From a virus (lineage: Duplodnaviria; Heunggongvirae; Uroviricota; Caudoviricetes): a stretch of 33,888 nucleotides of DNA. Positions 6,885-24,500 of the stretch are shown piece by piece. The stretch is from IMG/VR virus record IMGVR_UViG_2585427782_000001, one strand, 5' to 3'. A program made the translations under genes and the position numbers. A model generated the notes under the pieces. The model was not told where the DNA came from, searched no databases, and saw only the letters and a program-made list of their open reading frames with translations. Positions within the stretch are counted from its first letter, which is position 1; every line of letters starts with the position of its first letter.

Positions 6885-8720
6885 TTACCTGCCAAAGCGC
6901 GTATAGCCAACATCATGGCTGACATCAAAACCGCTGGATCGCGTTTCCATAACCCGCATACCCGGAGGCGAATTCACAAAAGAGACCTTGATCTCACCAT
7001 CAACTTTTGGCGCAGAAGCTTTGTTAATCATGAAGGGGTTCGGGCCTGTGACATCGGAGGCGTTGTTTGACTGAGCCGGATCCACCACCGGATAAGGTGT
7101 GTATCCCCGCGCCGGTATTCCCGTCCCATAAGCATCATAAGCACCCGCGCCCCACTGCGCAGAGTTAATGGCATCGACCGTGTCACCGGAACTGTCGGTA
7201 AACCACTCAATAATTGGCTTCAGCTTGTCCCACATATCCTGAAACCACTTAACAACCGGCCCCCAGTTATTGATCACCATCCCCAGCGGCGACCAGGCAA
7301 AAACTTTCTTAAGGAGTTCCCAGCCAGCCTCAAAATAAGGACCAATGGTTTCCCAGAGTTTCTTAAAATAAGGTCCGACAACATCCCAGTTAGTGATAAT
7401 TAATCCCGCAGCCAGGGCTATCGCCGTCGCAATCATGCCAATCGGCGTCATCGACATGATCCTGCTGACAATACTGATGGCACCGCCAACACCCATCAAT
7501 CCCAGTTTCAGAATCGCAAGACCGGCAGCAAGCCCAACGACGCCGCGAATAACCCGGGGATTTTCATCCGCAAACTTCGTGAATTTCTCCCCCAACTCCC
7601 CCAGCCATTGCGTGATATTTTTAGCGTCACCAGAAAATGCGCCGCCAATAGCCGCAAGGCCGTTAGTTGCGGTCCCCGTCATTGCCTCCCACAGGTTGGA
7701 CAGCGTACCAAGCTGGGCCTGAACACGTTTATTCAGGCTGGCCTGTTTATTCATCTTCTGCTGGATCTGATCGTAGCCATCCTTTCCTTTATCGATTAGT
7801 GCATTGACCACCTGAAGGGTTTCGGCATCATCACCAAATATTGCCTTAAGTACACCTGTTCGCTTAACGTCGGTCAGTTTTCGCAGCTTTGCCAGTTGCC
7901 TGAACATGTTATCAAGACCGCCAAAACTTCCTTTGCCGTCAGTAAAATCGAGCTGTACCCCGAGTTTCTGGCGGGCCATGATTTTATTGACGTCCCTGAT
8001 TTTCTTAACGCTTAATCCGGACTGGATAACTTTTCGCAGGGCGTTACCTGCCGACTCCCCGTTCATCCCCATCTGATCCATCATGACGCTGATGGGGGCA
8101 AGGCTCTGTGCAGCCTGAAGACCGTCCTTGTTCACCATCTTCAGAACAGAGCTGGTTTTAGTGAAGAAGGACAACATGTTGGTATCGTCAACACCCAGAT
8201 AAAACGCCTTCTGGATAGTGTCGAACAGCCCCATCATGTCTTCTGACGCCGTTCCGGTAGCATCCTGCATCTTTGCAGCAAACTCAGCAGCCGCTTCCGG
8301 TGTTTTTTTCAGTTGTACCGCAAGATAAGCTGTCGCTTTACCCACACCACCAAGAATGTTTTCTGCCGGGATCCCCTGACGCACCAGCATCTGCATCATG
8401 TTCTGGAAATCAGCCGTTGTACCGGGTAGCTGGTTACCCAGGCCAATAGCCAGTTTATTGATGTCCTGAAAGCTCTTTCCAACCTCGCCGTTCGCATCCA
8501 TCATGGCGACTTTCAGCCCGGTGGCGGCGTTTTCCTGATCGGCATAAGATTTCAGGGAAAGCGTCAGACCAGCTGCCAGTCCGCCACCAAGCGCCAGCCC
8601 ACCCTGTGACGCTTCTTCCGCCTGGCGTTTAAATCCCCGGATTTTCTTTTGCATTTTCGACAGCGCGGGAGAAAGTCTGTCGACACCGGTGATCAACGCC
8701 TTAAGCTCAAATTCAGCCAT
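6885..8720 (-). CDS. tail tape measure protein
   Basis: 611-aa ORF with Ala/Gly-rich and hydrophobic segments typical of tape measure proteins; sits between the chaperone and baseplate genes. Confidence 0.85.
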   Translation of the reverse strand: MAEFELKALITGVDRLSPALSKMQKKIRGFKRQAEEASQGGLALGGGLAAGLTLSLKSYADQENAATGLKVAMMDANGEVGKSFQDINKLAIGLGNQLPGTTADFQNMMQMLVRQGIPAENILGGVGKATAYLAVQLKKTPEAAAEFAAKMQDATGTASEDMMGLFDTIQKAFYLGVDDTNMLSFFTKTSSVLKMVNKDGLQAAQSLAPISVMMDQMGMNGESAGNALRKVIQSGLSVKKIRDVNKIMARQKLGVQLDFTDGKGSFGGLDNMFRQLAKLRKLTDVKRTGVLKAIFGDDAETLQVVNALIDKGKDGYDQIQQKMNKQASLNKRVQAQLGTLSNLWEAMTGTATNGLAAIGGAFSGDAKNITQWLGELGEKFTKFADENPRVIRGVVGLAAGLAILKLGLMGVGGAISIVSRIMSMTPIGMIATAIALAAGLIITNWDVVGPYFKKLWETIGPYFEAGWELLKKVFAWSPLGMVINNWGPVVKWFQDMWDKLKPIIEWFTDSSGDTVDAINSAQWGAGAYDAYGTGIPARGYTPYPVVDPAQSNNASDVTGPNPFMINKASAPKVDGEIKVSFVNSPPGMRVMETRSSGFDVSHDVGYTRFGR

Positions 8721-8880
8721 GTGTGCGTTTCTCCTGCTCTATCCTGTTTGCCTGACTGACCAGCAAGGGAATTTCACTGATCGGCATATTCAGCAATTCG
8801 AAGGGATTAATGCGCCAGTAACTGGCGCAGTCAAAGAAGCGATCAGTGAGGTATTCAGCCGTCAGGCCTGGAGGAAAAAA
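8713..8880 (-). CDS. -1 frame extension of the tail assembly chaperone (predicted programmed frameshift product)
   Basis: The -1 frame is open from the slippery heptamer TTTTTTC (plus 8874-8880) to a stop at 8713, adding about 55 aa and ending in an ATGGCTGA overlap with the tape measure start. Confidence 0.55.
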   Translation of the reverse strand, partial: FFPPGLTAEYLTDRFFDCASYWRINPFELLNMPISEIPLLVSQANRIEQEKRTHG

Positions 8881-9131
8881 CCGGCCACAAGCCACGCCGC
8901 TGCATTCAGGTCTGCCGGAGACATCTGGTCGACAGAGCTTTGCGGCACTTTCGCCAGCCGCACAATGTATTTCGACACCACATGCGCCAGAAGTCTGACG
9001 GACTCATCCTGATTCATCTGGTAGGGATACCCCAGCTCGCGGACATCCTTCCCGGTGGGTTCATCAAACTCCAGTACGGAAAGTGTCTCACCATGAGCGA
9101 TAATCGGTTTCTTTAACTCAAGCTCTTTCAT
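8862..9131 (-). CDS. tail assembly chaperone (upstream ORF of a frameshift pair)
   Basis: 89-aa ORF between the tube and tape measure genes; ends ..AGFFLQA* just after a T_TTT_TTC slippery heptamer. Confidence 0.7.
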   Translation of the reverse strand: MKELELKKPIIAHGETLSVLEFDEPTGKDVRELGYPYQMNQDESVRLLAHVVSKYIVRLAKVPQSSVDQMSPADLNAAAWLVAGFFLQA

Positions 9132-9487
9132 TACTGGTAATCCCCTTCTTCACCGTGGAACTCAAGATCAACCGTGCCTTCTTCGGCATTATGGTTCGCT
9201 TCGCCGTGCAGCCAGGCGGACGACAATACATAGACCTGACCGTTCGCCAGCTCGGCAGTGATGGTCATCTCATCAGACGAGGTGATTTTGCTCACCGGAA
9301 AATTCTTCGGCACCTTGAAGGTCCCTTTGACATAAGGCGCACGGTGAGTTTCCTTGCGGTCCACTGAACCGTCCAGGCCGATGATGTCATCATTGACCGT
9401 CCTGTTCATGGGCACCTCAATGCCGCCGGTCAGCGATAGCTGCTGACCGTCAATTTTGAAATAACAGGTTCCCCCGATACGGGCCAT
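9131..9487 (-). CDS. tail tube protein (Mu M-like)
   Basis: 118-aa ORF immediately downstream of the sheath gene. Confidence 0.75.
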   Translation of the reverse strand: MARIGGTCYFKIDGQQLSLTGGIEVPMNRTVNDDIIGLDGSVDRKETHRAPYVKGTFKVPKNFPVSKITSSDEMTITAELANGQVYVLSSAWLHGEANHNAEEGTVDLEFHGEEGDYQ

Positions 9488-23822: not shown

Positions 23823-24500
23823 TTAATCGTACGAGTCGAGTATGTTCTGAAACGCCCAGCCATCCTCCTTAGGAACACAAGACAGAATCGAATGAATTAG
23901 ATCCCCTGCGGAAAGAAGTAACCCTTCTTGCCCTTCAAGAAAATAACGCCATTTAGGTCCATGAAACAGATTGTTCCGTAACCGGAAACAAACGAACAAG
24001 CACACTGCAAGCTGAGTCTCAGGCTCGGTTGTCATAGCTTGCATGGCTGAAAAATAGTCATCTCTCGCCTTTTGAGAGGTGTGGTGTAATTCCCCGCATA
24101 GGCTTTCAAACTTGCTTTTATCATTTACATAGCGTTCTGAAAAAAAATCGTATGTACACTTGAGAACCCCCAGATCCACAACCTCCATTTGCAAAAGACG
24201 ATTGGCATATTTCGCACTTTTGCCTTGCCCCCCAGCGCAATTAAGAAGTAGAGACTCGAAGAAAGAGAAGTACAAAAAATAACGATTAACGGCTGTAAGG
24301 ATAGATGGGGTAATCCTGCCTTCTGCATTAATCAACTCGTCAAATTCTGATGAAAAATCCAACTGTTCATCCTTTTCCATTATATTCGGCCATTTATTGA
24401 TATTGCACATCAGTCGCTCTTGGCAATGACAGGTTTGCTCTCGGTAATGTCTCAAACGCCCCAAAAAGTAGTCTCGCAAATGCTCTAGTTGCTCGCGCAT
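23823..24500 (-). CDS. hypothetical protein with HEPN-like R-x4-H motif (candidate RNase / abortive-infection effector)
   Basis: 225-aa ORF in an AT-rich insert; contains ..CFRLRNNLFHGPKW.. (RNxxxHG-type motif); no RBS at the annotated start, so the true start may be internal (M31 or M41). Confidence 0.35.
   Translation of the reverse strand: MREQLEHLRDYFLGRLRHYREQTCHCQERLMCNINKWPNIMEKDEQLDFSSEFDELINAEGRITPSILTAVNRYFLYFSFFESLLLNCAGGQGKSAKYANRLLQMEVVDLGVLKCTYDFFSERYVNDKSKFESLCGELHHTSQKARDDYFSAMQAMTTEPETQLAVCLFVCFRLRNNLFHGPKWRYFLEGQEGLLLSAGDLIHSILSCVPKEDGWAFQNILDSYD

What the first reader, a model, noticed from the sequence alone, without database searches (positions are those of the whole stretch)
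8713..9131. Programmed -1 ribosomal frameshift in the tail assembly chaperone upstream of the tape measure gene
The chaperone ORF (8862-9131) ends just after a T_TTT_TTC heptamer (plus 8874-8880, minus strand) that sits in the correct frame for -1 slippage; the -1 frame then runs a further ~55 codons to the tape measure start. This reproduces the conserved G/GT-type frameshift known from lambda and from P2 (E/E+E'), here in a Mu-like tail module.
Basis: partly seen in the sequence, partly recalled or inferred. Interest (0 to 1): 0.5.

Follow-up and report, generated by a model that had tools for sequence, protein, structure and literature searches.

The report
Tail chaperone -1 frameshift, P2 type
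This prophage's small tail-assembly chaperone gene carries the classic slippery sequence that lets some ribosomes slip back one base and make a longer second protein, a well-known phage device that databases have left unannotated in this phage group.

Summary
On the minus strand, an 89-codon tail assembly chaperone gene (9131-8862, Pfam PF10109) lies between the tail tube and tape measure genes. It contains T_TTT_TTC (8880-8874) in the phase needed for tandem -1 slippage. The -1 frame then runs 53 codons and stops at 8715-8713, overlapping the tape measure ATG (8720). The predicted fusion is 139 aa.

One sequence alone proves little: the window has 28 TTTTTTY. The comparative evidence is decisive.
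- All 33 related loci examined keep NNT TTT TTN in phase, down to 38% identity and including P2.
- All keep a 50-64 codon -1 extension ending at the tape measure start, while the 0-frame stop moves.
- The Gly and first Phe codons of the heptamer are GGT and TTT in 22 of 22 sequences. Every other conserved codon varies.
- The -1 peptide evolves mainly by third-position changes.
- Half of the relatives have no start codon for it.

The site sits at the same Pfam profile position as the annotated frameshift of phage P2 E/E+E'. I found no conserved stimulatory RNA structure.

Verdict: a real, ordinary member of the known G/GT (P2 E/E+E') class, and missing from every public annotation I inspected. 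The tail module is Mu-like, but Mu itself is reported to use a -2 shift. Interest is low.

The parts
8862..9131 (-). Tail assembly chaperone gene in the 0 frame, 89 aa, the counterpart of P2 gpE. Its ATG overlaps the tail tube stop (TAATG).
   Evidence: ORF list. PF10109 Phage_TAC_7, E 2.4e-15, 56.7 bits against cutoff 25, residues 4-86 on profile positions 2-78. phrog_166 'tail protein', E 4e-23. RefSeq names it 'phage tail assembly protein'.
8874..8880 (-). Slippery heptamer T_TTT_TTC (U_UUU_UUC in the mRNA). It lies in codons Gly84 (GGT), Phe85 (TTT) and Phe86 (TTC).
   Evidence: Sequence. In phase in all 24 genome loci and 10 phage records. GGT 22/22 and TTT 22/22, while every other conserved degenerate codon uses 2-5 synonyms. 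Synonymous diversity is 0 at codons 84-85 against a gene-wide 0.50.
8713..8874 (-). The -1 frame extension, the counterpart of P2 E' and lambda T: 53 sense codons (8874-8716) plus TGA (8715-8713). With the 0-frame part it gives a 139-aa fusion, complement(join(8713..8874,8874..9131)).
   Evidence: Translation. phrog_32181, E 4e-40. Differences by codon position are 215/102/616, with 531 synonymous against 245 non-synonymous codon differences among close relatives. No start codon in this frame in 12 of 24 loci.
6885..8720 (-). Tape measure protein gene, 611 aa. Its ATG (8720-8718) overlaps the stop of the -1 extension by 8 nt (ATGGCTGA).
   Evidence: PF10145, E 1.3e-26. phrog_17727 and phrog_28 'tape measure'. 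P2 shows the same 8-nt overlap of the E+E' stop with the T start.
9131..9487 (-). Tail tube protein gene, directly upstream. It fixes the canonical position of the chaperone pair between the tube and tape measure genes.
   Evidence: PF10618 Tail_tube, E 2.4e-33. phrog_185.
8812..8828 (-). Hairpin GCGCCAG-UUA-CUGGCGC inside the -1 extension, 45 nt 3' of the heptamer. Its role is uncertain and it is probably not a frameshift stimulator.
   Evidence: Predicted in the minimum-free-energy folds. 86% of cells pair across 20 relatives, but with almost no covariation. Cys102 and Tyr105 codons show reduced synonymous variation.

Best explanation
This is a programmed -1 ribosomal frameshift of the lambda G/GT and P2 E/E+E' class.

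How it works. Most ribosomes translate the chaperone gene to its stop and make an 89-aa protein. A minority slip back one base. This happens when tRNA-Phe occupies both the P site (UUU) and the A site (UUC) of U_UUU_UUC, where both anticodons can re-pair with UUU in the -1 frame. Those ribosomes then read CCU CCA GGC... for 53 more codons. The product is a 139-aa fusion that ends inside the first codons of the tape measure gene.

What is shown here: the sequence anatomy, selection on the heptamer at synonymous sites, selection on the -1 peptide as protein, the absence of an independent start in many relatives, and positional correspondence with the annotated P2 site.

What is inferred from lambda and P2. 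The shared N-terminal part coats the tape measure protein. The frameshift-only C-terminal part recruits the tail tube protein so that the tube polymerises around the tape measure. The slip frequency sets the ratio of the two products, and neither product stays in the virion. The shift is probably of low efficiency (a few percent or less) and works without a conserved downstream RNA structure.
For: 1. Anatomy. The heptamer is in phase. The extension is 53 codons, and its stop overlaps the tape measure ATG.

2. Family and position. The gene is PF10109 and lies between the tube (PF10618) and tape measure (PF10145) genes.

3. Conservation. 24 genome loci (100% down to 38% aa identity, including the beta-proteobacterium Derxia) and the phages AH07, F1055, ST64B, SfIV, phiP27, BgVeeders33, DVM-2008, PG1, PBb002 and P2 were examined.
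- All have NNT TTT TTN in phase at codons 78-89.
- The -1 extension is 50-64 codons and ends at the tape measure start.
- Fusions are 129-150 aa.
- The 0-frame product ranges from 87 to 111 aa.

4. Synonymous constraint. GGT and TTT are invariant (22/22) while all 25 other conserved degenerate columns vary. The residue before Phe-Phe or Phe-Leu is G, N, R, S, P or D in different lineages, yet its codon always ends in T.

5. The extension is protein-coding. 66% of differences fall at third positions, and the motif FDCAxYWRINP...QANRI is conserved.

6. No independent initiation. 12 of 24 loci have no ATG, GTG or TTG in that frame. The window's GTG at 8895 has no Shine-Dalgarno sequence.

7. P2 precedent.
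- NC_001895 annotates E+E' as a joined CDS with a '-1 translational frameshift' at GGTTTTTTG.
- P2 E residues 7-85 and window residues 4-86 both map to PF10109 profile positions 2-78, which places the two slip sites at the same position.
- A profile of the fused family against P2 E+E' gives E 8e-5 over 119 columns.

8. Literature.
- U_UU.U_UU.C belongs to the efficient H_HH.U_UU.Y class in E. coli and is used by IS elements (PMC4066793).
- The G/GT mechanism and its wide conservation are reviewed in PMC5009743.
- P2 E is 91 aa and E+E' 142 aa, with no downstream structure (PMC3091744).
Against: - No protein-level evidence exists for this phage group. No record inspected annotates the join.
- In a reporter without a stimulator, UUUUUUC gave only 0.121% frameshifting, rising to 7.6% with the IS3 pseudoknot (PMC4066793, supplement).
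- I found no conserved stimulator. RNAalifold gives -3.8 kcal/mol. The window's long hairpin is kept only in the close clade, with no compensatory changes. Synonymous resampling gives z -1.6 for the whole extension and +1.2 for the first 51 nt.
- The -1 part is not recognised by Pfam PF06528 (P2 GpE). It matches a GpE profile only at E 0.035, so its homology to E' is not established.
- The sequence cannot separate ribosomal slippage from transcriptional slippage.
Confidence: 0.88

Rival explanations
1. Transcriptional slippage. RNA polymerase adds one extra U on the T6 run in a fraction of transcripts. Standard translation of those mRNAs then gives the same GFF-PPGL fusion.
For: The site is a homopolymer run, and seven lineages have T7. 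Selection for T at the third position of the preceding codon also lengthens the run. UUUUUUU is under-represented in E. coli genes, and transcriptional slippage is one explanation offered for that (PMC4066793). The protein product would be identical, so the sequence evidence here fits both mechanisms.
Against: Six U is short for efficient polymerase slippage (established knowledge, not tested here). In 19 of 22 sequences the second Phe codon is TTC, so the run is held at exactly six in the X_XXY_YYZ phase rather than lengthened. The homologous P2 site is annotated and published as a translational frameshift (title of Christie et al. 2002 as cited in PMC3091744).
Confidence: 0.07
2. The -1 ORF is an independent small gene: a 60-aa protein started at GTG 8895, as annotated in phage vB_EcoM-689R6. 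It is not a frameshift extension.
For: One GenBank record annotates it as a separate hypothetical protein (URC08943.1). Many databases hold it as stand-alone ORFs of 35-100 aa. phrog_32181 is built from such calls.
Against: 12 of 24 related loci have no ATG, GTG or TTG in that frame between the previous stop and ten codons past the slip site. Where a start exists, no Shine-Dalgarno sequence precedes it. This reading does not explain why the heptamer is frozen at synonymous sites.
Confidence: 0.02
3. Chance or decay. The heptamer and the open -1 frame are fortuitous, or the locus is a chaperone gene broken by a frameshift mutation or a sequencing error.
For: Heptamers of this type are common: 28 TTTTTTY in the window and 196 XXXYYYZ on both strands. 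The full-length 'fused' proteins in metagenome assemblies are indel artefacts.
Against: The identical two-frame arrangement occurs in 75 of 80 IMG/VR loci, and the other five differ only in the stop. It also occurs in 24 genome loci and 10 phages across several bacterial orders. The -1 frame is under purifying selection.
Confidence: 0.01

Closest known systems
Phage P2 gpE / gpE+E' (-1 frameshift at T_TTT_TTG; NC_001895 19430..19685,19685..19857)
   Same: - Same Pfam family for the 0-frame protein (PF10109: P2 E, E 1.5e-12; window, E 2.4e-15).
- The slip site maps to the same profile position (78).
- Same GGT TTT TTN context.
- Similar sizes: 91 and 142 aa in P2, 89 and 139 aa here.
- The stop of the fusion overlaps the tape measure ATG by 8 nt in both.
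- No conserved downstream structure in either.
(PMC3091744)
   Different: - The seventh base is C, not G.
- The -1 peptide is not recognised by the P2 GpE model PF06528, and the profile comparison gives only E 0.035.
- The flanking sheath, tube and baseplate genes are Mu-like rather than P2-like.
- Pairwise identity is very low (BLASTP E 0.65).
Phage lambda gpG / gpGT (-1 frameshift at G_GGA_AAG)
   Same: Same gene position between the major tail and tape measure genes. Same logic of two products with a shared N-terminus, made at a fixed ratio of about 30:1. This is the mechanistic model in which G binds the tape measure and T binds the tail tube protein (PMC5009743).
   Different: Different slippery heptamer and tRNAs (Lys rather than Phe). 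No detectable sequence similarity. Lambda has a non-contractile tail.
Phage Mu gp41 (tail assembly chaperone, reported -2 frameshift)
   Same: Same gene order: sheath L, tube M, chaperone, tape measure, DNA circularisation protein N, baseplate P. The neighbouring genes of the window are Mu-like.
   Different: Mu gp41 is 144 aa. It belongs to PF23746 and reaches only 24.7 bits on PF10109, just under the cutoff of 25. It has no X_XXY_YYZ heptamer near its end. It is reported to use -2 frameshifting (PMC5009743, PMC2628397).
U_UUU_UUC -1 frameshift sites of bacterial insertion sequences
   Same: Same heptamer and the same tRNA-Phe tandem slippage (PMC4066793).
   Different: IS sites normally carry a downstream hairpin or pseudoknot, or an upstream Shine-Dalgarno-like stimulator. 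None is conserved here.

Membership tests
G/GT-class tail assembly chaperone frameshift (Xu, Hendrix & Duda 2004 class) | Two overlapping reading frames located between the major tail (tube) gene and the tape measure gene | tested here: met
   Tube 9487-9131, chaperone 9131-8862, -1 ORF to 8713, tape measure 8720-6885.
G/GT-class tail assembly chaperone frameshift (Xu, Hendrix & Duda 2004 class) | [quoted passage not shown] | tested here: met
   T_TTT_TTC at codons 84-86 of 89, in phase. Frozen at synonymous sites.
G/GT-class tail assembly chaperone frameshift (Xu, Hendrix & Duda 2004 class) | The downstream frame has no translation start of its own | tested here: met
   No start codon in 12 of 24 loci. 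No Shine-Dalgarno sequence before the window's GTG.
G/GT-class tail assembly chaperone frameshift (Xu, Hendrix & Duda 2004 class) | The two-frame arrangement is conserved among diverged relatives, and the extension evolves as protein | tested here: met
   33 loci down to 38% identity. Third-position excess 215/102/616.
G/GT-class tail assembly chaperone frameshift (Xu, Hendrix & Duda 2004 class) | Both the short and the fused protein are made in vivo at a fixed ratio, and both are needed for tail assembly | not testable with these tools
   Needs western blot or mass spectrometry and genetics. Known for lambda and P2 only (PMC5009743).
Pfam PF10109 Phage_TAC_7 (P2 gpE / Mu gp41 / 'gp14') | HMM score above the gathering threshold | tested here: met
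   56.7 bits against 25, residues 4-86.
Pfam PF06528 Phage_P2_GpE (the E' part of P2 E+E') | HMM match of the -1 encoded peptide | tested here: not met
   No hit at E <= 10, whereas P2 E' scores 78.7 bits. Profile-profile comparison gives E 0.035, probability 1.5%. The peptide resembles E' in position and length, but membership is not shown.
Mu gp41 type (PF23746, -2 frameshift) | Gp41_Mu domain and a -2 shift site | tested here: not met
   The window protein hits only PF10109. Mu gp41 hits PF23746 and has no X_XXY_YYZ heptamer. The extension frame here is -1.
-1 PRF cassette with a downstream stimulatory structure (IS3, dnaX or viral type) | Conserved hairpin or pseudoknot 5-9 nt 3' of the heptamer, or a Shine-Dalgarno-like element 6-17 nt 5' | tested here: not met
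   Consensus fold -3.8 kcal/mol. No compensatory changes in the window-derived stems. The first 51 nt give z +1.2 against synonymous resampling. No GGAGG upstream. No Rfam match.

The most novel reading that the evidence does not exclude
The bare U_UUU_UUC and U_UUU_UUG heptamers give only about 0.12% frameshifting in E. coli reporters (PMC4066793). P2-type sites are nevertheless reported to shift more often than lambda's (PMC5009743). The SfV/P2-type sites may therefore depend on a stimulator that has not been recognised. One candidate is the clade-specific extended structure whose base starts 5 nt after the heptamer and encloses the hairpin at 8828-8812, where synonymous variation is reduced. 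Another is the conserved nascent peptide W-x-V-A-G-F-F. If either holds, this widespread prophage would be a convenient model for a non-canonical frameshift enhancer.
Probability: 0.15. Interest if true: 0.45.

Novelty: already known. Interest (0 to 1): 0.2.

Why it matters
The main value is for annotation. This prophage family occurs in 1104 of 5426 complete E. coli genomes and in the Shigella serotype-converting phages SfV, SfI, SfII and SfIV. Every record I inspected either leaves a 142-nt 'intergenic' gap or calls a spurious 60-aa hypothetical protein. The correct feature is a joined CDS with ribosomal slippage, complement(join(8713..8874,8874..9131)) in window coordinates. The same fix applies to ST64B, phiP27, and the Pantoea, Burkholderia, Pseudomonas (including a tailocin cluster) and Bordetella relatives.

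Biologically it shows that a Mu-like contractile tail module can carry the P2-type chaperone and slip site rather than Mu's reported -2 site. That fits the mosaic exchange of tail genes among phages. It does not change what is understood about how these chaperones work.

Tried and rejected
- Downstream stimulatory structure.
  - Single-sequence folding gave z -3.06 against dinucleotide shuffles.
  - The signal vanished with controls that keep the protein sequence: z -1.6 for the whole extension, p 0.36 for the first 70 nt, z +1.2 for the first 51 nt.
  - It also vanished across relatives: the stems persist only where the sequence itself is conserved, and the outer stem shows no compensatory changes.
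- Rfam: no family matched. The only hit was a chance CRISPR-repeat match at E 0.76.
- Upstream Shine-Dalgarno-like stimulator: none in the sequence.
- Natural in-frame fusions. The 137-139 aa hits P0001-P0006 have scrambled junctions and are singletons from error-prone assemblies. A profile search with the -1 peptide found only short stand-alone ORF calls.
- Homology of the -1 part to P2 E': not significant on its own.
- Solved structures and NCBIfam: no matches.
- Literature.
  - Xu et al. 2004, Christie et al. 2002 and the SfV genome paper are not held in the library. I could not check whether SfV is explicitly listed there.
  - Searches for SfV or ST64B together with frameshift found nothing specific.
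- Other heptamers. The in-phase heptamer at ORF 24125-24328(-) lies inside a longer real ORF (23823-24500) in another frame, so I dismissed it as a shadow ORF. I did not follow up the other candidates.
- Terminator-like hairpin plus T-run at 8894-8882. The stem is weak and depends on the variable Ala codon, and the count is no higher than in shuffles.
Full report
**What is there**

The window is a prophage of the SfV/SfI/SfII group. The 1.2 kb around the finding is 98-99% identical to the Shigella phages SfII, SfI and SfV and to Escherichia phage vB_EcoM-689R6. It matches 1104 of 5426 complete E. coli genomes.

The tail genes lie on the minus strand in Mu order:
- sheath, 10983-9487 (Phage_sheath domains)
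- tube, 9487-9131 (PF10618)
- an 89-codon ORF, 9131-8862
- tape measure, 8720-6885 (PF10145)
- DNA circularisation protein, 6866-5496 (PF07157)
- Mu gp44/P-like baseplate hub, 5499-4420

The 89-aa protein belongs to Pfam PF10109, 'Phage tail assembly chaperone proteins, E, or 41 or 14' (56.7 bits, cutoff 25).

**Checking the observation**

Read on the minus strand, the ORF ends GCC GGT TTT TTC CTC CAG GCC TGA.
- TTTTTTC occupies 8880-8874 in the X_XXY_YYZ phase.
- After a -1 slip the ribosome would read CCT CCA GGC CTG ACG..., giving PPGLTAEY..., for 53 codons to TGA at 8715-8713.
- That stop overlaps the tape measure ATG at 8720 (ATGGCTGA).
- The fusion would be 139 aa.

The '~55 codons' are 53.

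By itself this is not rare. The window has 28 TTTTTTY against 16.9 expected. Several mechanical ORFs carry in-phase heptamers near their ends.

**Comparative test**

I fetched 23 loci from one-genome-per-species bacterial genomes, with 100% to 38% chaperone identity. They include Edwardsiella, Pantoea, Kosakonia and the beta-proteobacterium Derxia. I also fetched 80 IMG/VR viral contigs and ten phage records.

- *Anatomy is kept everywhere.* Every locus has NNT TTT TTN in phase at codons 78-89. Every locus has a -1 frame open for 50-64 codons that stops at or just inside the tape measure start. Fusions are 129-150 aa. The 0-frame stop wanders, giving products of 87-111 aa.
- *The heptamer is frozen at synonymous sites.* Among 22 distinct sequences the Gly codon is GGT 22/22 and the first Phe codon TTT 22/22. 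Each of the 25 other conserved degenerate columns uses 2-5 codons. Synonymous diversity falls from a gene-wide 0.50 to 0 exactly at the heptamer and recovers a few codons later.
- *The base before the Phe codons is always T.* In more distant lineages the residue before Phe-Phe or Phe-Leu is Gly, Asn, Arg, Ser, Pro or Asp. Its codon is always GGT, AAT, CGT, AGT, CCT or GAT.
- *The extension evolves as protein.* Among nine close relatives the differences by codon position are 215/102/616. There are 531 synonymous and 245 non-synonymous codon differences. The motif FDCAxYWRINP...QANRI is conserved.
- *It cannot start on its own.* In 12 of 24 loci that frame has no start codon at all. The window's GTG at 8895 has no Shine-Dalgarno sequence.

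Together these results exclude chance, a pseudogene and an independent small gene.

**Relation to known systems**

P2 (NC_001895) annotates E (91 aa) and E+E' (142 aa) as a joined CDS, with a '-1 translational frameshift' at GTC GGT TTT TTG. The E+E' stop overlaps the tape measure (T) start by 8 nt.
- P2 E residues 7-85 and the window protein's residues 4-86 both align to PF10109 profile positions 2-78. The two slip sites therefore sit at the same position of the same family.
- A profile of the fused family aligns with P2 E+E' over 119 columns at E 8e-5.
- The -1 part alone is not recognised by the P2 GpE model PF06528. It matches a GpE profile only at E 0.035. I treat it as E'-like in position and size, not as a proven homologue.

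Mu's own gp41 is 144 aa, belongs to PF23746 and lacks such a heptamer. Mu is reported to use -2 frameshifting (PMC5009743, PMC2628397). So this Mu-like tail module carries a P2-type chaperone and slip site.

**Mechanism**

Two steps are shown by the sequence and its relatives: selection for a tandem-slippage heptamer, and a protein-coding extension that can be reached only from the upstream frame.

The rest is inferred from lambda and P2 (PMC5009743, PMC3091744):
- The short protein and the N-part of the fusion bind the tape measure protein.
- The frameshift-only C-part recruits the tube protein.
- The slip frequency fixes the ratio of the two products.
- Neither product stays in the virion.

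U_UU.U_UU.C belongs to the efficient H_HH.U_UU.Y class in E. coli (PMC4066793). In a reporter, however, it gave 0.121% without a stimulator and 7.6% with the IS3 pseudoknot (supplement).

**Stimulatory structure**

- The 131 nt after the site fold with z -3.06 against dinucleotide shuffles. The fold is a long irregular hairpin whose base starts 5 nt after the heptamer.
- Controls that keep the protein sequence remove the signal: z -1.6 for the whole extension and +1.2 for the first 51 nt.
- The alignment consensus fold is only -3.8 kcal/mol.
- The window-derived stems survive only in the close clade, without compensatory changes in the outer stem.
- Rfam has no match.
- Three distant relatives do carry strong hairpins 2-3 nt after the heptamer.
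- A small hairpin at 8828-8812 shows reduced synonymous variation. At 45 nt it is too far away to act in the classical way.

The absence of a conserved structure agrees with what is reported for P2 (PMC3091744).

**Rival that remains**

Transcriptional slippage on the T6 run would give the same protein, and sequence alone cannot exclude it. Three things make it unlikely: the short run, its maintenance at exactly six T in 19 of 22 sequences, and the P2 precedent.

**State of annotation and novelty**

None of the inspected records annotates the join. These are RefSeq SfV, SfIV, ST64B and phiP27, a PGAP-annotated E. coli genome, and phages AH07, F1055, BgVeeders33, DVM-2008, PG1 and PBb002. One record calls the -1 ORF a separate hypothetical protein, as do many database entries.

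The phenomenon itself is textbook. The key survey (Xu et al. 2004) could not be read here, so I cannot say whether SfV is listed in it.

I rate the finding as a correct identification of an already known kind of feature. Interest is low, and its practical value is for annotation.

Noticed in passing
window 8812-8828 (minus strand): Perfect 7-bp hairpin GCGCCAG-UUA-CUGGCGC inside the -1 extension, 45 nt after the heptamer. The Cys102 and Tyr105 codons within it show almost no synonymous variation across relatives (0.11 and 0.0 against 0.50 gene-wide). Tyr codons elsewhere in the gene split about 12:8 and 12:10. This is unexplained.
   Followed up: partly
L019 1743-1793, L024 1752-1802, L026 1743-1793: Three distant relatives (an uncultured proteobacterium, Pantoea sp. 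AS142, Derxia gummosa) carry strong hairpins starting 2-3 nt after the heptamer (z about -2.0 to -2.4 against synonymous resampling). The window and its close clade do not. Stimulators may be lineage-specific.
   Followed up: partly
proteins P0001-P0006: The 107-139 aa 'fused' chaperone proteins in the large protein collection are mostly singleton clusters, each seen on one contig, with scrambled junctions (for example ...AGFSSSLTAEY...). They come from indel-error assemblies at the T-run and are not natural in-frame fusions.
   Followed up: yes
L044, L050, L075, L096, L106 (IMG/VR loci), equivalent to window 8713-8720: Five of 80 otherwise identical viral contigs have a 55-codon extension instead of 53. 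In the two I read (L044, L050) the junction is ATGGCGGA instead of ATGGCTGA. The change is synonymous in the tape measure gene but removes the -1 stop. The exact end of the fusion is therefore not strictly fixed.
   Followed up: partly
L001 2206-2388 (ON470584.1 9199-9381) and window 8713-8895: The -1 frame is annotated in one phage record as a separate 60-aa 'hypothetical protein' starting at GTG. RefSeq SfV and PGAP genomes leave 142 nt unannotated between the chaperone and the tape measure gene.
   Followed up: yes
L029 (Burkholderia phage BgVeeders33) and the literature: A PF10109-family protein of a Burkholderia gladioli prophage (Bg_9562) has been reported as a type III-secreted antifungal effector (PMC5581363). 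The B. gladioli phage homologue in my set has the same T_TTT_TTC frameshift arrangement. That paper never uses the word 'frameshift'.
   Followed up: no
window 8882-8894 (minus strand): A weak terminator-like hairpin (5 pairs) lies directly before the T-run of the heptamer. Its stem depends on the third base of the Ala codon, which varies among relatives. The number of such sites is no higher than in shuffles.
   Followed up: partly
L115 (Pseudomonas phage DVM-2008, EU982300.1 8955-9382): The element annotated as Pseudomonas phage DVM-2008, from P. fluorescens Q8r1-96, keeps the same chaperone frameshift. PMC2647930 describes the related SfV-like tail cluster of this strain as pyocin-like and lacking head genes. 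The heptamer is AGT TTT TTC and the 54-codon extension ends at the tape measure start. It too is unannotated.
   Followed up: partly
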